Assembly (NCBI GenBank): GCA_043812975.1
Contig: JBDRLP010000027.1
Location: forward strand, 52,111 to 116,110
Reading direction: 5' to 3'
DNA: 64,000 nt
Source: Candidatus Iainarchaeum sp.
GTDB lineage: Archaea; Iainarchaeota; Iainarchaeia; Iainarchaeales; Iainarchaeaceae
The translations under genes and the position numbers were made by a program. How positions within the stretch are numbered: the stretch's first letter is position 1; each line of letters opens with the position of its first letter. Shown in pieces: positions 3,458 through 57,742 of this stretch. Under the pieces are notes generated by a model. It saw only the letters and a program-made list of their open reading frames with translations, made no database searches and had not been told where the DNA came from.

Positions 3458-4497
3458 TTTGAATTCCTCATAATCAACAATAAGTCTTTTCCAAGTTTTT
3501 TCTTTTTCACAATTCGTATTTTTAAAGTCTTTTTGAGTTTAAACGCCTTTAAACCCTGTTTAATTTCTCTGTCAGCAATAATAAAAACCAATCTATCAAA
3601 CATTTTTTTTTCTAATAATTCTGAAGCAAGTCTGTTTCCTGGTTCAATCAAAACTGTTTTGATTCCAAAAGAATAAAGCTTTCCAAAAACATCATCCAAA
3701 TCAACCCCCTTCTTTGAATCTTTTACAGTAACAACCTTTGCACCTTTCTCAAGTAACTTTTTGACTTTATTTTTCGGAGCTTTTTTTGTACAGAAAATAA
3801 TTATAGTTCCTTTTTCAGAAAACAATTTAGAATTCAAAGGGATTCTTGCTTTCGAATCAAGCACAATCCGTACAGGATTTCTTCCCTTTCTCACACTCAA
3901 TTTTGGGTTATCTTTCAAAACAGTATTGATTCCAACAAGTATTGCATTATTTTGTGTCCGCAGTTTCTGAACAAATTCTAATGCTTGTTTTCCCGAAATT
4001 TTCTTTTTTTCCCTGTTTCCGAACGAAATAAATCCGTCATTGCTCATAGCAATTTTGATTGTTATTGTTGGGGTTTTAGTCTCACAATAATTTGTTATGT
4101 AGAAGTCATATAGTTTTTTAGCTTCTTTTTCATTTGTAATCTTTACAATAATTCCGTGTTTTCTTAATTCTTTAACTCCGTTTCCTGATTCTTTGTTTGG
4201 GTCTCGCCAAGCAATAAAAACACGCTTAATTCCGGCTTCGATAATAGCTTTTGTACAGGGGGATTGCTTTCCATAATGATTACAAGGTTCAAGTGTCACA
4301 AAAAGGTCTGCTCCTTTGGCCTTTATGCCTGCTTTTTCAAGTGAGGTAGTCTCAGCATGTTTACCCCCAAATTGCTCATGAAACCCTTTTCCAACTACTT
4401 TTCCTTCCTTAACAACAATCGCTCCAACCATTGGATTTGGCCATGCATCTTTTCCTTTTTTGGCTAGTTTAATAGCTTCTGGCATGAAATTTTTCAT
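3454..4497 (-). CDS. ribD: Riboflavin biosynthesis deaminase/reductase RibD (CMP/dCMP-type deaminase plus RibD C-terminal reductase domain)
   Basis: HAE...PCxxC zinc-deaminase motif (HAETTSL...LEPCNHYGKQSPC) followed by a reductase-like C-terminal domain. Confidence 0.7.
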   Translation of the reverse strand: MKNFMPEAIKLAKKGKDAWPNPMVGAIVVKEGKVVGKGFHEQFGGKHAETTSLEKAGIKAKGADLFVTLEPCNHYGKQSPCTKAIIEAGIKRVFIAWRDPNKESGNGVKELRKHGIIVKITNEKEAKKLYDFYITNYCETKTPTITIKIAMSNDGFISFGNREKKKISGKQALEFVQKLRTQNNAILVGINTVLKDNPKLSVRKGRNPVRIVLDSKARIPLNSKLFSEKGTIIIFCTKKAPKNKVKKLLEKGAKVVTVKDSKKGVDLDDVFGKLYSFGIKTVLIEPGNRLASELLEKKMFDRLVFIIADREIKQGLKAFKLKKTLKIRIVKKKKLGKDLLLIMRNSK

Positions 4498-7824: not shown

Positions 7825-7927
7825 AGTAAACTCACTTAGAATATGAAAACTATAAATGCTTTTAAAACAACCGTTGCGTCGGTTGGGTGCGCGGATGTCC
7901 AACCCATCTGCGATGGGTTATAATGCC

Positions 7928-13002: not shown

Positions 13003-13003
13003 C

Positions 13004-13063
13004 AGCGGACACCTCCGCTGGAGAGGTGTGCTGCCTTCGGCACCACGTACTCACTTACGTTCG
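13004..13063 (+). repeat. GC-rich two-hairpin structured element, family copy E (most divergent)
   Basis: cagcgg-acacct-ccgctg hairpin, gtgctgccttcggcac hairpin, gtactcacttacgttcg tail shared with the other copies. Confidence 0.4.
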
Positions 13064-13189
13064 TTTTTGTCATAATCTTCACCTTTTTCCCTTTTCAGGG
13101 TTGTTTTGTTTCAATCCGCTTTTGCGGATAAACTTCTAAAATCAGAAGTAACAATAATTCGCCTTGAAAACCTTTAAAAAGCTTGGTTT

Positions 13190-16319: not shown

Positions 16320-16859
16320 AAATAAATATTTTAGAACAAAACATATAAAAATATTACATTATTTTTAAATTTTGTTAAATTCTGGCCATTTTTGGCCAAA
16401 AGTGTTAAATTTCATGGTTTTATGTTTTATTTTTGATTATTTTTAATTTTTGTTCCTGTTTTTTGGAAAAAACGCCTTAAAATGCCTTAAATCTGGTAAT
16501 ACTGCCATTTTCTGGTCGCCAGCTTTATTAATAAAGAAGGGGGCAATGTGATTGGTGTTTTGTTTATGATTGGAAAAATAATAAGACAAAATAGAAGAAG
16601 TTTCAATCGCGAAGAGGGAGAATTAAGAATCCAAATTGATGGCGAACCTTTTCCTGCTAGGGTAAGATTTCCTAAACGGAGGTGACTGAGGATAGGGGGG
16701 ATGGGATTAATTTAGTTTAAAACAAAAAAATTCTAAAAAAGGGGGGTGTTTATGATGAAAACCGGGGCTTCGGCCCCGCTCATAAACCAAAAATCTGATT
16801 CTTATCTGATTCTTAATTCAAGTTTAAAAATTCAGGTTTTAAAGGTCAAGGTTAAGTAT

Positions 16860-18281: not shown

Positions 18282-18387
18282 TGCGGGCGCCGAGAATCGA
18301 ACTCGGGCCACAACCTTATTGCAAATAATCTTACTTAGTTTCGATTCTTTTTGGCAAGGTTGCGTACTACCGCTATACTACGCCCGC
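18282..18387 (-). tRNA. tRNA-Gly (anticodon GCC) with a roughly 33-nt intron at the canonical 37/38 position
   Basis: Acceptor GCGGGCG/CGCCCGC, anticodon stem CAACC/GGUUG flanking UUGCCA + intron, T arm CCGAG-UUCGAUU-CUCGG; 105 nt in total. Confidence 0.8.
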
Positions 18388-22651: not shown

Positions 22652-22671
22652 GTGGGCCAGGGAGGACTCGA
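22652..22671 (-). repeat. Duplicated 3' end (T loop to acceptor end, 20 nt) of the adjacent tRNA-Val
   Basis: tgggccagggaggactcgaa is identical to 22738..22757 within tRNA-Val; two perfect hairpins lie between the copies. Confidence 0.8.
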
Positions 22672-22737
22672 AGAAACTTTTGCCAAAAGTTTCATCAAAA
22701 CGTACGAAGCCTGCATTACCCATCCTTCGGATGGGTA

Positions 22738-22810
22738 TGGGCCAGGGAGGACTCGAACCTCCGATCCTCTCCGTGTAAAGGAGATGTCATAGCCACTAGA
22801 CCACAAGCCC
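22738..22810 (-). tRNA. tRNA-Val (anticodon UAC)
   Basis: Acceptor GGGCUUG/CUGGCCC (one U-U mismatch), D arm GUC-loop-GAC, anticodon stem UCUCC/GGAGA, loop UUUACAC, T arm GGAGG-UUCGAGU-CCUCC. Confidence 0.8.
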
Positions 22811-22933
22811 GACCTTTTCTTTTTCGAGAAAAAGAAAAGCTCGACCAAAAGAAAAAGCTCTTTCCTACTGTAAAGAAAGAATCCTTTTGGTTACTATGGA
22901 AATTCGTTTGAAAACTATTAAAAAGCTTCCAAT

Positions 22934-23788: not shown

Positions 23789-23850
23789 TGCGCCGTCTGC
23801 TCACGGCGGTAGAGCGTCCTGTTTTCAACAGGACTGGCTCACTTCGTTCG
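23789..23850 (+). repeat. GC-rich two-hairpin structured element, family copy D (tRNA-Glu-like 5' two-thirds, no T arm)
   Basis: GCGCCGU-CU-GCUC-ACGGCGGUA-GAGC-G-UCCUG-UUUUCAA-CAGGA-CUGGC then CUCACUUCGUUCGC tail; no T arm or 3' acceptor strand. Confidence 0.45.
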
Positions 23851-23853
23851 CAA

Positions 23854-31391: not shown

Positions 31392-31880
31392 TTATGATTG
31401 ATCAAAAAGATTTGACATTGGGGTTTCTGCTTCTACAGTTTCATTTTCTGTTCTTGTTTCGGTTTCAGTAGGCGTTTCCTGTACTGGAGGTTCTTCTTCT
31501 GCTTCAGCCTGTTCTGTTTGTTCAGAAATCCTGTTGCTCATTTCTGTAGGAGCTATTCCTTTGTAAATAACTTTTTTGGTCATTCCTTTTTCGCCCCATA
31601 AGTATGCTACTGTTTCTTCCTGGCCTTTAGTTGCCCAAACTGTTTTGTCATTTGCATGGTTTTCACCAGGATTTTTTAACATGAATAATGGGCTATAACC
31701 CAGTTTTACTCTGTCTCCCTGAACCTGAAGAACCTTAAAAACAGTCTCATCATTACCATTTCCTCTTATTCTGTCAAATCCTTCGTTTTCTGAAGCAGTA
31801 TATTCTTCAGTAGTAATGTCTTTTTTGAACGGCGGAGCCCAGTCTGCCCTAATGGTTTTAACCTCAAAAATTGCCTTCAT
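31392..31880 (-). CDS. Hypothetical protein with an acidic Thr/Glu-rich C-terminus; the ORF opens at 32060 across the structured element
   Basis: ORF; start taken at MKAIFEVK because the upstream part translates the GC-rich repeat element. Confidence 0.4.
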   Translation of the reverse strand: MKAIFEVKTIRADWAPPFKKDITTEEYTASENEGFDRIRGNGNDETVFKVLQVQGDRVKLGYSPLFMLKNPGENHANDKTVWATKGQEETVAYLWGEKGMTKKVIYKGIAPTEMSNRISEQTEQAEAEEEPPVQETPTETETRTENETVEAETPMSNLFDQS

Positions 31881-31921
31881 TGAAGAAATAAGTCTGCCGT
31901 GGTTTATATAGTTTGCTGTCG

Positions 31922-31990
31922 CCGCAGACCCGCGGCGGTAGGGCGTATTATCTTCGTCCCTTAAGGGGGACTCGATAATACTTGCGTTGT
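31922..31990 (+). repeat. GC-rich two-hairpin structured element, family copy A
   Basis: gccgc-agaccc-gcggc hairpin, GGUAGGGCG linker, 8-bp stem GUAUUAUC/GAUAAUAC enclosing UUCG...hairpin...GGACUC, ACUUGCG tail. Confidence 0.5.
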
Positions 31991-32050
31991 GTAGGAAGTC
32001 TGATCTGTGTATAAAGTCTGATTCTTGTGTAAAAAGCAAAACAAGAACAG
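31985..32050. repeat. Intergenic repeat, copy 1 (agtctgat...tgtgtaaaaagcaaaacaagaaca)
   Basis: Shares ctgtgtaaaaagcaaaacaagaaca with 32715..32775 and a partial copy at 33245..33290. Confidence 0.7.
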
Positions 32051-32131
32051 CACAAATCAACGAATGCTTACTGAAAATATTGTGTTATAACATTACTGTT
32101 GTGAATCATGAAATGAACGAATTGTCTATCA

Positions 32132-41036: not shown

Positions 41037-41040
41037 AATT

Positions 41041-41075
41041 CCGCACCGGCACGAACTTGGAGTTCGCACCGGCAA
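41041..41075 (+). promoter_or_regulatory. TTCGCACCGGCAA-type motif pair upstream of the gene at 41122
   Basis: ccgcaccggcacgaacttggagttcgcaccggcaa followed by cttaaaaacgctttttaaat TATA-like sequence. Confidence 0.5.
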
Positions 41076-41121
41076 TGTACCCCTTAAAAACGCTTTTTAA
41101 ATCAGAATCGAAAGTTGTAGT

Positions 41122-45552: not shown

Positions 45553-45592
45553 CTATGATTCATTCCCCAGTTAGCTTTAAAAAGGTTGATTT

Positions 45593-45660
45593 CCCCGCCT
45601 GCTTGCGGGGGTAAAGCGTTCTATCTTCGTTTGGACTCGATAGAACTTGTTCGCACTGGC
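45593..45660 (+). repeat. GC-rich two-hairpin structured element, family copy B (its tail carries the TTCGCACTGGCAA motif)
   Basis: ccccgc-ctgctt-gcgggg hairpin, GUAAAGCG linker, 8-bp stem GUUCUAUC/GAUAGAAC enclosing UUCGUUUGGACUC, tail cttgttcgcactggcaatg. Confidence 0.5.
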
Positions 45661-55801: not shown

Positions 55802-55886
55802 GATAAATCATGTGGCTGTAAACAGTTAAAAAACCTTAGAACTGAAATCTTAGAATGACCCGAGTAGCAGTATTGGAACCACAGTT

Positions 55887-55955
55887 GCGGCTGTGGACGC
55901 CCTTCGGGCGGCGTACTATCTTTGCCTTTAGAAGGCTCGATAGTACTTACGAGAG
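55887..55955 (+). repeat. GC-rich two-hairpin structured element, family copy C
   Basis: cgcc-cttcg-ggcg hairpin, 8-bp stem GUACUAUC/GAUAGUAC enclosing UUUG-gccuu-uag-aaggc-UC, tail ttacgagag. Confidence 0.5.
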
Positions 55956-55963
55956 ATGAGTGT

Positions 55964-57742
55964 ATGACTAGAGTAGCTGTGCTGGAAAAGGACCGTTGTA
56001 TCAACAAAGAAGGCTGTAATTTCATTTGCGGAAAGGTTTGTCCAGTGAATAGAGCAGGCAAGGAATGCATTTCTTTGGAGAAGGAAACAAATAAACCAGT
56101 AATAAATGAAAACCTCTGCATAGGCTGCAATATTTGCGTTCAGAAATGTCCTGTTGATTGCATTTACATTGAAAACCTTGTACAGGAACTGAATGAAGAA
56201 CCGGTTCAGAGGTTTGGTGAAAACGAGTTTAGGGTTTACAGGTTGCCTCTGATTAGAGAAGGGGAAATAGTAGGTTTGATTGGAAGAAACGGAATCGGAA
56301 AAACCACTATTCTGAAAATTCTTTCAGGCCAGTTAATACCGAATTTAGGGGATTATGAAAATGAATCAAATTATGATAAAGTAATTGCTTTTTTTAGAGG
56401 AAGAGAATTGCAGGATTATTTTTCGTCATTAAAAGAAAAATTAATAAAAGTTTCTTTCAAACCCCAGAACATTAATGATATTCCAAAAAATTTTAAGGGA
56501 AATGTAAATGAGTTGCTGAAAAAAGTTGATGAAAGAAAAAAACTTGGAGAAATCACAAAAATACTCAATTTAGAAAAAATTTTGGATAGAGACTTAAAAA
56601 GTTTAAGCGGAGGAGAACTACAAAGAGTTGCTATTGCAGCAGCTGCTTTGAAAGATGCTGATTTTTATGCGTTTGATGAACCCACCTCTTATTTGGATGT
56701 TAAAGAAAGACTAAACATGGCTTCCTTGTTAAGGTCTCTGGCAAGTGAAAAGAAAACAGTTATTGTAATTGAACACGACTTAGCGGTTTTGGATTACTTG
56801 AGTGATTATGTGCATTTGCTTTATGGAAAAAAATCTGTTTATGGAATTGTTTCAAATTCCAAAAGCGTGAAAAACGGTATTAATGAATTTTTGGATGGTT
56901 TTGTAAAGGATGAAAATGTCAGGTTCAGAAAAGAAGAATTAAAATTTGAAGTTAAACCATCAACTGATTTTAAAATGAAAAATATTGCTGCTAAATACCC
57001 ATCTATGAAAAAATCTTTCAAGGATTTTTCTTTAGAAATCGAGGGCAGTGAATTCAGAGAAGCAGAAGTTCTTGGTATTATGGGTCCTAATGGAATCGGT
57101 AAAACAACTTTTGTAAAAATGCTTGCAGGAGTTGAAAAACCAGATGAAGGTTCTATTGATCTTTCTCTAAAAGTTTCTTACAAGCCTCAATACCTTGCTG
57201 CTGAACATGGAGTTACTGTTGCTGATTTTATTGCTTCTCAAAATATTGACAGGGCTATTTTCAAGCAGGAAGTTGACAGGCGTCTTTTCATCAGTGAGTT
57301 GGAAAACCATAAGTTAGAGGAACTTTCAGGAGGAGAACTTCAGAAGGTTGCTGTTGGAATGGCTTTATGCAGAAATGATGCTGAATTAGTGCTTTTAGAT
57401 GAACCAACGGCGTTTGTTGATATTGAAGACCGTCTCAATATGGCTGATACTATAAGATCTGTTACTGATTCAAAAAAGAAAGTTTGTTTGGTTGTTGACC
57501 ACGATATTTTGTTTCAGGATTATGTCAGCGACCGCTTAATGATTTTTGAAGGAGAATCCTCAGTAAGAGGTTTAGCAAGAAAGCCTTTCACAATGCATGA
57601 TGGGATGAATCATTTCCTCAAAGAAATGGGTCTCAGCCTAAGAAGGGAAATTTCGAATGGTAGGCCTAGAATAAACAAACCAGGTTCTCAATTGGATCAG
57701 GAACAGAGAGCTAAAGGAGAATATTATTACGCAAAAGGATAG
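55964..57742 (+). CDS. abcE1: ABCE1 (RNase L inhibitor/Rli1) ribosome recycling ATPase; the ORF track start at 55922 runs over the structured element
   Basis: N-terminal 4Fe-4S ferredoxin-like domain (CINKEGCNFICGKVCPV...CIGCNICVQKCPVDC), two ABC domains (GLIGRNGIGKTT, GIMGPNGIGKTT, LSGGELQ x2). Confidence 0.9.
   Translation: MTRVAVLEKDRCINKEGCNFICGKVCPVNRAGKECISLEKETNKPVINENLCIGCNICVQKCPVDCIYIENLVQELNEEPVQRFGENEFRVYRLPLIREGEIVGLIGRNGIGKTTILKILSGQLIPNLGDYENESNYDKVIAFFRGRELQDYFSSLKEKLIKVSFKPQNINDIPKNFKGNVNELLKKVDERKKLGEITKILNLEKILDRDLKSLSGGELQRVAIAAAALKDADFYAFDEPTSYLDVKERLNMASLLRSLASEKKTVIVIEHDLAVLDYLSDYVHLLYGKKSVYGIVSNSKSVKNGINEFLDGFVKDENVRFRKEELKFEVKPSTDFKMKNIAAKYPSMKKSFKDFSLEIEGSEFREAEVLGIMGPNGIGKTTFVKMLAGVEKPDEGSIDLSLKVSYKPQYLAAEHGVTVADFIASQNIDRAIFKQEVDRRLFISELENHKLEELSGGELQKVAVGMALCRNDAELVLLDEPTAFVDIEDRLNMADTIRSVTDSKKKVCLVVDHDILFQDYVSDRLMIFEGESSVRGLARKPFTMHDGMNHFLKEMGLSLRREISNGRPRINKPGSQLDQEQRAKGEYYYAKG

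What the first reader, a model, noticed from the sequence alone, without database searches (positions are those of the whole stretch)
31922..31990. Family of GC-rich, two-hairpin intergenic elements (5 copies, same orientation) with compensatory base changes - candidate novel structured RNA or DNA element
Five intergenic loci carry a 60-70-nt GC-rich module. They are 13004..13063, 23789..23850, 31922..31990, 45593..45660 and 55887..55955. The module stands out in an AT-rich genome and is always written on the + strand, whatever the orientation of the neighbouring genes. Its architecture runs as follows: a 5' GC hairpin (for example gccgc-agaccc-gcggc, ccccgc-ctgctt-gcgggg, cgcc-cttcg-ggcg); then a GUARRGCG linker; then an 8-bp helix enclosing a short insert that begins UUCG/UUUG and ends GGACUC/GGCUC; then the tail ACUU-N-CG(UUCGC). 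In three copies the 8-bp helix differs at two positions with perfectly compensatory changes. These are GUAUUAUC/GAUAAUAC at 31946, GUUCUAUC/GAUAGAAC at 45617 and GUACUAUC/GAUAGUAC at 55911. This covariation argues for selection on structure. Copy D folds like the 5' two-thirds of a tRNA-Glu (D arm plus anticodon arm UCCUG-UUUUCAA-CAGGA) but has no T arm or 3' acceptor strand. In copies A, B and C the helix likewise exposes a UCUUCG/UCUUUG loop, so the family may be tRNA-derived. Several copies were read through by artefactual N-terminal extensions in the ORF track (31392..32060, 55922.., 45647..).
Basis: seen in the sequence. Interest (0 to 1): 0.8.

Follow-up and report, generated by a model that had tools for sequence, protein, structure and literature searches.

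The report
Small hairpin insertion elements in archaea
The GC-rich two-hairpin modules are not tRNA relics or ordinary small-RNA genes but copies of a previously undescribed family of tiny structured insertion elements, found in DPANN and Altiarchaeota archaea, that land at the ends of genes and duplicate a stretch of the target so the gene still works.

Summary
All five loci exist, and the 8-bp helix covaries in a 38-sequence alignment. The interpretation changes.

The window is from a Candidatus Diapherotrites (Iainarchaeota) MAG and holds at least seven copies, all in the same orientation. No Rfam family matches, not even tRNA for the "tRNA-like" copy.

Pattern scans recovered about 45 further copies in archaeal MAGs and metagenomes. 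These include Ainarchaeum and Altiarchaeota.

The elements behave as insertions:
- Related genomes have the same sites empty (four of the seven window copies).
- 13 of about 33 copies are flanked by 15-47-nt direct repeats of the local target, against 1% of control positions.
- The repeats cover gene starts, gene ends and 3' ends of tRNA and 5S genes.

At gene starts the old ATG opens a short uORF. It runs through the element and stops at or just before the new ATG.

There are no terminal inverted repeats. No transposase, integrase or reverse transcriptase lies nearby, and I found no match in phage, plasmid or viral collections or in the literature.

Best reading: a non-autonomous mobile element whose conserved hairpin module is the recognition structure. 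The insertion chemistry is unknown.

The parts
7868..7919 (+). It has the 5' hairpin CAACCG-TTGCGT-CGGTTG, the linker GGTGCGCG and a second hairpin AACCCATC-TGC-GATGGGTT. There is no CUAUC module. It sits just upstream of the TATA box of a minus-strand gene.
   Evidence: GC/hairpin scan and coordinates. The site is empty in L129, from GCA_024653905.1.
13003..13073 (+). Copy A, a 71-nt insertion between the original and the present ATG of the S19e gene (minus strand). Parts: hairpin CAGCGG-ACACCT-CCGCTG (13003-13020), hairpin GTGCTG-CCTT-CGGCAC (13028-13043), tail CTCACTTACGTTCG (13050-13063). On the minus strand it gives a uORF, MTKTNVSEYVVPKAAHLSSGGVR*. The uORF's TGA overlaps the S19e ATG. 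The hairpin also supplies a GGAGGTG Shine-Dalgarno sequence 8 nt before that ATG.
   Evidence: The site is empty in L129 (S19e 80% identical) and L130. The same hairpin abuts the start codon of other genes in L119/L072 and L028/L101.
22653..22672 (.). Upstream copy of the 20-nt direct repeat TGGGCCAGGGAGGACTCGAA flanking copy G. It is a duplicate of positions 54-73 of tRNA-Val.
22673..22737 (+). It has the hairpin GAAACTTTT-GCC-AAAAGTTTC, the linker ATCAAAAC and a hairpin ACCCATCC-TTCG-GGATGGGT. It is inserted at the 3' end of tRNA-Val(-), which lies at 22738-22810. The second copy of the repeat is 22738-22757, inside that tRNA.
   Evidence: The same hairpin and linker head the Altiarchaeota-type copies (L047, L075, L104, L121, L126).
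23790..23852 (+). Copy B. It has the hairpin CGCCGT-CTGCTC-ACGGCG (23791-23808), the linker GTAGAGC, the hairpin GTCCTG-TTTTCAA-CAGGAC (23816-23834) and the tail TGGCTCACTTCGTTCGCA. It lies directly after the stop codon of a Toprim/DnaG-like gene (minus strand). This is the 'tRNA-like' copy.
   Evidence: No tRNA model hit. Its hairpin and linker are near-identical in L085/L114, where they precede the CUAUC module and are flanked by a 24-25-nt repeat at the 3' end of 5S rRNA.
31920..31984 (+). Copy C, the locus of this finding. It has the hairpin CGCCGC-AGACCC-GCGGCG (31920-31937), the linker GTAGGGC and the 8-bp helix GTATTATC (31945-31952)/GATAATAC. That helix encloses TTC, the inner hairpin GTCCC..GGGAC (31956-31971) and TC, and is followed by ACTTG. 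It abuts the upstream edge of the promoter (acagcaaactatataaacc on the minus strand) of gene 31392-31880(-).
   Evidence: (42.6 bits). The site is empty in L097 (neighbouring protein 90% identical) and L098. It is filled with a homologous hairpin in the more distant L099.
45592..45655 (+). Copy D. It has the hairpin CCCCGC-CTGCTT-GCGGGG (45593-45610), the linker GTAAAGC, the helix GTTCTATC/GATAGAAC enclosing TTC-GTTTGGAC-TC, then ACTT and the tail GTTCGCA. It lies in the divergent intergenic region between the EF-1beta gene (-) and a + strand gene.
   Evidence: (52.6 bits). I could not obtain the orthologous site in relatives.
55855..55878 (+). Upstream copy of the direct repeat of copy E. It is the original first eight codons of ABCE1 (ATGACCCGAGTAGCAGTATTGGAA, MTRVAVLE), which now start a 34-codon uORF (55855-55959).
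   Evidence: It is 23/24 identical to the single copy in the empty site of L086.
55879..55963 (+). Copy E. It has the hairpin CCACAG-TTGCGG-CTGTGG (55879-55896), the hairpin CGCCC-TTC-GGGCG (55898-55910) and the helix GTACTATC (55913-55920)/GATAGTAC (55939-55946). That helix encloses TTT-GCCTTTAGAAGGC-TC, and the tail is ACTTACGAGAGATGAGTGT. The uORF stop TGA (55957-55959) lies 4 nt before the ABCE1 ATG.
   Evidence: (43.8 bits).
55964..55987 (+). Downstream copy of the direct repeat. It is the present start of ABCE1 (ATGACTAGAGTAGCTGTGCTGGAA, MTRVAVLE). It differs from the upstream copy at five positions, all synonymous.

Best explanation
The loci are copies of a family of very small (about 50-110 nt), non-coding, GC-rich insertion elements. 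Each is built from two or three hairpins.

Architecture.
- A variable 5' hairpin, which comes in a few recurring types.
- A short linker.
- A second helix that begins GUNC and ends GNAC-UU.

In the best-conserved form the second helix is GUNCUAUC/GAUAGNAC. It encloses the unpaired bases UUY and UC and a small hairpin of variable sequence and length.

What is shown:
- The elements are, or recently were, mobile. Related genomes carry the same site without the element.
- A filled site differs from an empty one by the element plus a second copy of 3 to 46 bp of the target.
- The genome is very compact, so the surviving insertions lie at the edges of functional units, and the duplication regenerates the interrupted gene end.
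- At gene starts the old start codon opens a short uORF. The uORF runs through the element and stops on or just before the duplicated start codon.
- One hairpin type also brings a Shine-Dalgarno sequence.
- The hairpins are kept by compensatory changes.

What is inferred:
- The duplicated start is translated by termination-reinitiation, so the gene stays expressed.
- The conserved module is the structure recognised, in single-stranded form (ssDNA or RNA), by a trans-acting enzyme that is not encoded in the element.
- Insertion involves two nicks a variable distance apart, one often at GAA, followed by fill-in. Alternatively, insertion is assisted by a short homologous copy of the target.

The enzyme and the chemistry are unknown.
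For: Family and structure
- The module model finds C, D and E at 42-53 bits.
- Exact-pattern scans give about 15 archaeal copies in GTDB genomes and 32 in JGI metagenomes. They include Ca. Ainarchaeum, Altiarchaeales and Altiarchaeota records.
- Covariation: 0/500 shuffles reach the observed values, and four pair types occur at the unconstrained helix position.

Mobility
- Empty sites exist for E in L086, L131, L132 and L133.
- For A in L129 and L130.
- For F in L129.
- For C in L097 and L098.

Direct repeats
- 13 of about 33 non-redundant copies score >=15, against 3/299 control positions.
- Perfect examples: 20 nt at G, 24-25 nt in L085, 46+ nt in L039, 30 nt in L127, 29 nt in L084.
- The repeats cover the ABCE1 start (window, L087, L084), a trpB-like start (L039, identified from the N-terminal sequence alone), tRNA positions 54-73 (G, L107, L120), a tRNA 5' part (L127), the 5S rRNA 3' end (L085) and a gene 3' end (L029).

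uORFs ending at the new ATG
- Seen in the window at E and A, and in L087, L084 and L039.

No partner gene
- Clustering of ORFs from 43 element-bearing loci gives only what read by eye as housekeeping families (not scanned against Pfam).

Strand
- 7/7 window copies share one orientation.
- A.C mismatches outnumber G.U 10 to 1 in the written orientation.
- The complement folds better in 37/38 modules.
Against: - No terminal inverted repeats and no conserved termini.
- No transposase, integrase or reverse transcriptase was found.
- No longer autonomous relative was found in any locus.
- Nothing turned up in phage, plasmid or IMG/VR collections.
- The duplication length ranges from 3 to 46 bp, wider than any single known transposase gives.
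- The seven copies in the window all have different 5' hairpins, so there has been no recent burst in this genome.
- The unpaired module bases are conserved across archaeal phyla. That could equally mean a host function.
- Where the repeat is coding, the two copies differ only synonymously (13 of 13 differences). Simple duplication followed by neutral decay does not predict this.
- Elements with the same 5' hairpin sit at the ABCE1 start in three lineages, while four lineages between them are empty. This fits site-directed or homology-assisted insertion better than random transposition.
- The better folding of the complement may partly reflect loop energy parameters.
Confidence: 0.6

Rival explanations
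1. Domesticated or host-serving cis-acting RNA modules. On this reading the hairpins work inside host transcripts. They could act as 3'-end or stability elements after tRNA, 5S, SRP RNA and mRNAs. They could also act as leader structures that set translation through uORF termination-reinitiation, for example feedback on the ribosome-recycling factor ABCE1. They would have spread by duplication and be kept because they are useful.
For: - The unpaired bases of the module are conserved between Iainarchaeota and Altiarchaeota.
- If the complement strand is the folded one, six of the seven window copies are sense to an adjacent gene. These are the S19e leader, the DnaG-like 3' UTR, the tRNA-Val trailer and two co-directional intergenic spacers, plus the region upstream of EF-1beta.
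- The uORF/start coupling recurs in five loci.
- An element of the same hairpin type sits at the ABCE1 start in three lineages.
Against: - Close relatives do without the element at the same genes.
- Orientation relative to the host gene is mixed. It is sense at the ABCE1 and trpB-like starts in the written orientation, and antisense at S19e, 5S and several tRNAs.
- Insertions with perfect 20-46-nt repeats look recent rather than maintained.
- Tandem arrays of identical units occur (L126, L121, L005).
- No common gene class is served.
Confidence: 0.15
2. Footprints or miniature derivatives of integrase-driven integrative elements. On this reading the flanking repeats are att cores. The incoming DNA carried its own copy of the gene end, as tRNA-targeting integrative plasmids and viruses do. 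The hairpins would be what is left of, or all that is needed from, the ends of the integrated DNA. Insertion would be by site-specific or short-homology (Campbell-type) recombination of a small circle.
For: - In three independent tRNA insertions the repeat runs exactly from the T loop (position 54) to the 3' end. From my own knowledge, this is the classic att layout of T-loop-targeting integrases.
- Synonymous-only differences between repeat copies fit a foreign copy of the gene end.
- Arrays of the form [repeat-element]n fit integration of multimeric circles.
- The same element type recurs at the same gene (ABCE1) in three lineages.
Against: - The whole insert plus one repeat is only 85-210 bp, with no integrase. 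No full-length relative was seen in about 45 loci or in viral and plasmid collections.
- Targets are many and unrelated. They include tRNA 5' and 3' ends, 5S, gene starts and ends, and promoters.
- The repeat extents at the ABCE1 start differ (24, 29 and 41 nt), and copy A has only 3 nt.
- A double-stranded circle of about 100 bp is physically implausible (my own knowledge).
Confidence: 0.12
3. One reading: a family of independently transcribed, structured small RNAs descended from a tRNA (5' two-thirds of tRNA-Glu), possibly tRNA halves.
For: - Copy B can be drawn with a D arm (GCUC-ACGGCGGUA-GAGC) and an anticodon arm (UCCUG-UUUUCAA-CAGGA).
- B, C and D share GGUARRGCG.
- In L127 a real 5' fragment of a tRNA lies upstream of an element.
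Against: - The tRNA covariance model and ARAGORN find nothing at any copy.
- The 'acceptor' strand pairs with the 'D loop' to form the 5' hairpin in every copy.
- The anticodon-like arm of B is replaced by the CUAUC module in its closest homologue, L085.
- There is no partner 3' half and no consistent promoter.
- The tRNA fragment in L127 is the duplicated target, not part of the element.
- Relatives have empty sites.
Confidence: 0.05

Closest known systems
Prokaryotic MITEs and other small non-autonomous repeats (Sulfolobus SM1-4, Correia/NEMIS, RUP, ERIC)
   Same: Short, non-coding and multi-copy. Presence varies between related genomes, and copies are flanked by a duplication of the target. 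They are often co-transcribed with neighbouring genes and sometimes supply expression signals.
   Different: There are no terminal inverted repeats and no conserved ends. The duplication is long and variable (3-46 bp) instead of short and fixed. No cognate IS was found. The conserved part is an internal asymmetric hairpin module with covarying pairs.
IS200/IS605-derived hairpin elements (PATEs, REP/BIME with RAYT)
   Same: They are defined by subterminal hairpins rather than inverted ends. Insertion is strand-specific, which parallels the 7/7 same orientation in the window. The hairpins act in single-stranded DNA.
   Different: That family makes no target duplication and inserts next to a fixed tetra- or pentanucleotide. 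Its two end hairpins resemble each other. No TnpA or RAYT gene was seen near any copy.
GC clusters and double-hairpin elements of fungal mitochondria, 'byp' elements, and Rickettsia palindromic elements
   Same: GC-rich hairpin units scattered in a very AT-rich, compact genome. They are mobile, have two hairpins, are tolerated at or inside genes, and are not autonomous.
   Different: There is no sequence relationship, and the host is from a different domain of life. Those elements are read in frame or bypassed by the ribosome. They do not duplicate the gene end or create a coupled uORF.
CRISPR spacer acquisition and casposon integration (Cas1-family integrases)
   Same: Each insertion duplicates a target segment of some tens of bp, within the size range of CRISPR repeats. 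Repeated insertion at the regenerated target would give arrays of the form [repeat-insert]n, as in L126 and L005. Casposons prefer the 3' ends of tRNA genes or of the EF-2 gene.
   Different: The duplication length is not fixed. The insert is a conserved structured element rather than a captured fragment or a TIR-bounded casposon. No Cas1 gene was detected near any copy, and this was not tested genome-wide.
SINE-like retroposons (target-primed reverse transcription)
   Same: Variable-length target duplication, no terminal repeats, dependence on a trans-acting enzyme, and a structured RNA-like body. Some repeat boundaries coincide with predicted transcript ends (the leaderless ATG, tRNA position 73).
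   Different: There is no evidence for a tRNA-derived head or an internal promoter. There is no A-rich tail, no reverse transcriptase was identified, and none is known for this role in archaea.

Membership tests
tRNA / tRNA half / tRNA-derived RNA | Scores with the tRNA covariance model or a tRNA finder | tested here: not met
   ARAGORN and Rfam find four true tRNAs in the window and none at the elements. Copy B gives no hit at E<=10 in a 101-nt search.
tRNA / tRNA half / tRNA-derived RNA | T arm and 3' acceptor strand, or a separate 3' half with a complementary leader | tested here: not met
   Neither is present in or next to any copy. The conserved tail CTCACTTNCGTTCG has no complementary partner in the window.
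Any Rfam family, including self-cleaving ribozymes, C/D and H/ACA sRNAs and riboswitches | Covariance-model match | tested here: not met
   Nothing at gathering score in the window. Only noise at E<=5-10.
MITE | Terminal inverted repeats | tested here: not met
   Insert boundaries were defined by perfect flanking repeats (G, L085, L039, L015, L084, L122, L127). The boundaries show unrelated 5' and 3' ends.
MITE | Short target-site duplication of fixed length | tested here: not met
   Repeats are present but measure 3, 18, 19, 20, 22, 24, 29, 30, 41 and 46+ nt.
MITE | Presence/absence polymorphism between related genomes | tested here: met
   Empty sites for E, A, F and C.
MITE | Cognate autonomous IS with the same ends | tested here: inconclusive
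   None was found in 43 element-bearing loci or in phage, plasmid and viral collections. Whole genomes could not be searched.
IS200/IS605-type hairpin element (PATE/REP) | No target duplication; insertion 3' of a fixed short motif | tested here: not met
   Long flanking repeats are present. Only a partial preference for GAA at one junction was seen (5 of 13; read).
IS200/IS605-type hairpin element (PATE/REP) | Strand-biased insertion | tested here: inconclusive
   7/7 copies share a strand in the window. The replication direction is unknown, and L103 has copies on both strands.
Integrase-borne integrative element | att repeat that restores the end of the target gene | tested here: met
   tRNA positions 54-73 are duplicated in G, L107 and L120. 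The ends of 5S rRNA, a trpB-like gene and ABCE1 are duplicated too.
Integrase-borne integrative element | Element encodes, or is a deletion derivative of an element encoding, an integrase, and uses one cognate site | tested here: not met
   Inserts are 50-170 nt with no ORF. There are many unrelated targets, and no long form was seen.
CRISPR array or solitary repeat | Constant repeat alternating with variable spacers | tested here: not met
   In the arrays (L126, L121, L005) whole units repeat, including the part that would be the 'spacer'. The module sequence differs between copies within one genome.
SINE-like retroposon | Reverse transcriptase partner and an RNA intermediate | not testable with these tools
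   No transcript data and no whole-genome gene inventory were available.

The most novel reading that the evidence does not exclude
A new class of archaeal mobile element. It is recognised through a conserved folded single-strand module rather than through terminal repeats. It is inserted strand-specifically by a trans-acting enzyme that nicks the target at two sites 18-46 bp apart, much as Cas1 does when it adds a CRISPR spacer. An alternative is an RNA intermediate, since several repeat boundaries coincide with transcript ends. Elements of this class would have evolved outward-facing translation signals (SD, stop/start overlap) that make insertions into gene starts harmless.
Probability: 0.3. 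Interest if true: 0.85.

Novelty: new variant of a known kind. Interest (0 to 1): 0.72.

Why it matters
DPANN and Altiarchaeota genomes are small and known mostly from metagenomes, and to my knowledge little is known about their mobile DNA.

- **Annotation.** A widespread element family that sits on gene starts, gene ends and RNA-gene ends would explain recurrent annotation errors. These include N-terminal 'extensions', pseudo-tRNA fragments and spurious small ORFs.
- **Population markers.** The elements would provide natural markers of population structure.
- **Tolerating insertions.** They show one way a compact genome tolerates insertions: duplication of the gene end plus uORF-coupled reinitiation.
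- **Integration mechanism.** If the insertion machinery is structure-guided and makes long staggered cuts, it would be a new integration mechanism, with possible links to the origin of CRISPR adaptation.
- **ABCE1.** The recurrent uORF in front of the ribosome-recycling factor ABCE1 is a directly testable case of possible feedback through reinitiation.

Tried and rejected
- **Known RNA families.** Rfam at gathering and permissive thresholds, on the whole window and on single copies, gave nothing.
- **tRNA, split tRNA or permuted tRNA.** No model hit, no T arm and no partner half.
- **Bulge-helix-bulge intron.** Both unpaired segments lie at the same junction (3 x 2 internal loop), not 4 bp apart on opposite strands (read).
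- **Kink-turn on the complement strand (GA/GAA loop).** The K-turn register breaks the covarying Watson-Crick register of the 8-bp helix (reasoned).
- **C/D and H/ACA sRNAs.** No boxes and no pseudouridylation pocket. The ACA after copy C belongs to the flanking promoter, which is also present at empty sites.
- **CRISPR.** The arrays repeat whole units.
- **Viral or plasmid origin.** The IMG/VR pattern scan gave only weak chance hits at 15-25 bits. blastn against phages and plasmids found nothing.
- **Partner enzyme by guilt by association.** All-against-all clustering of ORFs from 43 loci gave only proteins I read by eye as ABCE1, L34e, adenylate kinase, a DUF106-like protein, and ProRS and IleRS fragments. 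I did not run them against Pfam.
- **Literature.** Three full-text searches, including the motif sequences themselves, found no description.
- **More copies in the window.** Relaxed motif searches gave only chance-level hits. The GC/hairpin scan was what found F and G.
- **Extending the window along its contig.** This failed because the ORF starts I chose did not match the deposited proteins.
- **Flanking repeats at B, C and D.** Nothing above background.
Full report
**1. What is in the window**

The window is 34% G+C. It encodes archaeal housekeeping proteins: S19e, EF-1beta, Pelota and ABCE1. Its ABCE1 is identical to a protein of a Candidatus Diapherotrites (Iainarchaeota, DPANN) MAG on a 149,730-nt contig.

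Each folds into a 5' GC hairpin and a second helix.

Three of them share a well-defined module: C at 31920-31984, D at 45592-45655 and E at 55879-55963.
- The module is an 8-bp helix, GUNYUAUC/GAUARNAC.
- The helix encloses the unpaired bases UUY, a small hairpin closed by G-C, and the unpaired bases UC.
- It is followed by ACUU.

A at 13003-13073 and B at 23790-23852 have a plain second hairpin instead, followed by CUCACUUNCGUUCG.

**2. Not a known RNA and not a tRNA**

Rfam finds four true tRNAs in the window, one of them intron-containing. It finds nothing at the elements, either at gathering score or at E<=5-10. The tRNA model does not match copy B even in a 101-nt search at E<=10. The 'acceptor' strand of B pairs with its 'D loop' to make the 5' hairpin.

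**3. The family exists well beyond this genome**

- An exact-pattern scan of one genome per species gave 85 loci. Most are chance hits in bacteria. About 15 are in archaeal MAGs and show the same architecture, including the 5' hairpin. Among them are Ca. Ainarchaeum, Altiarchaeales and Altiarchaeota.
- A more specific pattern run on metagenomes gave 29 loci with 32 copies, nearly all genuine.
- A covariance model of the module scores these copies at 38-54 bits. In the window it scores only C, D and E.
- A and B belong through intermediates. L072/L119 has A's hairpin (CAACGG-ACACCT-CCGTTG, a compensatory variant), then the module, then GCTCACTTCGTTCGC. L085/L114 has B's hairpin and linker almost unchanged, followed by the module.

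The family is modular. A few recurring 5' hairpin types are combined with either the CUAUC module, a simple GUNC...GNAC hairpin, or an ACCCAUC...GAUGGGU hairpin.

**4. The structure is under selection**

The test used 38 distinct sequences.
- The one helix position left free by the search patterns is GC 14, AU 9, UA 7, CG 2 and unpaired 6.
- The second pair of the inner hairpin is CG 24, UA 8, GC 3.
- None of 500 shuffles reaches the observed pairing or covariation.
- Sliding the partners drops pairing from 95.5% to 19-39%.
- The inner hairpin varies from 2 to 6 bp with unrelated sequences.

**5. They are insertions**

Four window copies have empty sites in related genomes.

- **E.** In L086 (ABCE1 92% identical) the Pelota-ABCE1 spacer is 53 nt and the gene starts ATGACTCGAGTAGCAGTATTGGAAAAAGAC. 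The window has an extra 109 nt after codon 8. That is the element plus a second copy of the first 24 nt. L131, L132 and L133 (72-78% identical) are empty too.
- **A.** L129 and L130 read AAGGTGTAAAAAAATGGGTATA. The window has 71 nt between the old ATG and the ATG now used.
- **F.** This newly found copy at 7868-7919 is absent from L129.
- **C.** The promoter and start of gene 31392-31880(-) are conserved in L097, L098 and L099. The element is present only in the window and in the most distant of the three, L099. There it keeps a homologous 5' hairpin but has a simple second hairpin.

**6. Flanking direct repeats**

I searched the 160 nt on each side of every non-redundant module copy. 13 of about 33 copies have a direct repeat scoring 15 or more, against 3 of 299 random positions in the same loci.

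The repeats start within 0-30 nt of the ACTT end and stop at the foot of the 5' hairpin. The clearest cases and what they duplicate:

| Copy | Repeat length | What is duplicated |
|---|---|---|
| G (window) | 20 nt | Positions 54-73 of tRNA-Val |
| L107, L120 | not tabulated | Same part of other tRNAs |
| L015 | not tabulated | tRNA-Arg 3' end plus trailer |
| L127 | 30 nt | Leader, acceptor strand and D arm of a tRNA |
| L085 | 24-25 nt | 3' end and T-run of 5S rRNA |
| L039 | 46+ nt | Start of a trpB-like gene (named from its N-terminal sequence only) |
| L084 | 29 nt | Start of ABCE1 |
| L084 (second element) | 19 nt | Its TATA box |
| L029 | about 17 nt | Last codons of a gene |

Some loci hold arrays of the form [repeat-element]n. 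The period is 82 nt in L126 and L121, and 66 nt in L005. L103 has two successive elements separated by the same 18-21-nt repeat.

G (22673-22737) was found, like F, by a GC/hairpin scan of the window. That makes at least seven copies, all in the same orientation.

**7. How genes survive the insertion**

At every gene-start insertion the original ATG opens a short ORF. It runs through the element and ends on or just before the duplicated ATG.

| Locus | Arrangement of uORF stop and new ATG |
|---|---|
| Window E | TGA 4 nt before the ATG |
| Window A | TGATG overlap |
| L087 | ATGA overlap, 70 codons |
| L084 | TGAATG |
| L039 | TAA 15 nt before the ATG, with AAGGAAG in between |

A's hairpin, read on the gene strand, places GGAGGUG 8 nt before the ATG. 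The same hairpin abuts the start codon of two other genes in other genomes. I infer termination-reinitiation. This was not tested.

**8. What moves them**

This is unknown.
- There are no terminal inverted repeats and no conserved termini.
- No recurring non-housekeeping gene lies near the copies.
- There is no match in phage, plasmid or viral collections or in the literature library.

Some clues:
- Five of 13 clear repeats end in GAA at the hairpin junction. Three of these are tRNA T loops.
- Repeat lengths fall in the range of CRISPR repeats.
- Several repeat boundaries coincide with predicted transcript ends: the leaderless ATG of ABCE1 about 25 nt after a TATA box, and tRNA position 73.
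- All seven window copies share one orientation.
- In the written orientation A.C mismatches outnumber G.U ten to one.
- The complement folds better in 37 of 38 modules and 26 of 37 hairpin regions.

The last two points suggest the folded strand is the complement, whose internal loop reads GA/GAA.

**9. Unresolved points**

- Coding repeats differ only at synonymous sites: 5/5 in E, 6/6 in L087 and 2/2 in L029. The upstream copy of E is 23/24 identical to the empty site of L086, while the downstream copy is 20/24. Two explanations remain open. Either the upstream copy is constrained, as promoter-proximal sequence and uORF start, or the element arrived with a foreign copy of the gene end.
- Elements with the same 5' hairpin (CAACAG-UUUCGG-CUGUUG-GGUGCGAG) occupy the ABCE1 start in three lineages, with different repeat extents of 24, 29 and 41 nt. 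Four intervening lineages are empty. This suggests repeated targeting or homology-assisted transfer.
- I could not examine the orthologous sites of B and D.

**10. Verdict**

The tRNA-derived small-RNA reading is not supported.

The best-supported account is a previously undescribed family of tiny, structured, non-autonomous insertion elements of DPANN and Altiarchaeota archaea. They duplicate the target and are tolerated at gene ends. I rate this a new variant of a known kind. There is a real chance (about 0.3) that the insertion mechanism is itself new.

Noticed in passing
window 18282-18387 (-): A tRNA with an intron of about 34 nt after the anticodon loop. Rfam scores it at 55.8 bits, but ARAGORN misses it.
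   Followed up: partly
window 22813-22840; L015 about 3905-3940; L107; L100/L116: An AT-rich palindrome, CTTTTCTTTTTC-N-GAAAAAGAAAAG, lies directly upstream of the 5' end of tRNA genes in several of these archaea. In the window it produced the spurious mir-427 hit. It may be a conserved tRNA promoter or leader hairpin.
   Followed up: no
window 31988-32040: Three tandem units of about 18 nt (TGTGTAGGAAGTCTGATC and variants) lie immediately 3' of element C. Related genomes keep one or two units (L098 CGTTGTGCAGGAAATG, L099 GTGTTGTGTAAGAAGTC).
   Followed up: partly
window 55855-55987; L087 5792-6041; L084 about 1985-2090: The gene for the ribosome-recycling factor ABCE1 is preceded in three lineages by a uORF whose stop overlaps or abuts the ABCE1 start codon. 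Reinitiation after a uORF depends on recycling, so this could be a feedback loop. This is speculation.
   Followed up: partly
L126 12537-12894; L121 59-177; L124; L108; L005 2032-2260: Tandem arrays of whole elements. The period is 82 nt in Altiarchaeota-like contigs and 66 nt in L005. In the 82-nt unit, GATCAAAAC upstream of the module can pair with GTTCTTGATC downstream, forming an outer helix around the module.
   Followed up: partly
L130 3730-3836: A module-only insertion flanked by a 19-nt repeat (ctcgcacccaacagccgaa). The repeat overlaps the 5' hairpin of an older element. It lies inside the annotated C-terminal extension of S19e, and the ORF runs to the contig end.
   Followed up: partly
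window 41037-41083 and 16741-16779: Two other GC-rich islands. The first is CGCACCGGCA...GTTCGCACCGGCA, a repeat or hairpin after the stop of a + strand gene. The second is the hairpin CGGGGC-TTCG-GCCCCG near tRNA-Gly. Their relation to the family is unknown.
   Followed up: no
L029 6100-6330: Two tandem paralogues beginning MPRGDGTGP / MPRRDRTGP flank an element. The last five codons and the stop of the upstream paralogue (KGKCK*) are duplicated on the far side of the element, with two synonymous differences.
   Followed up: partly
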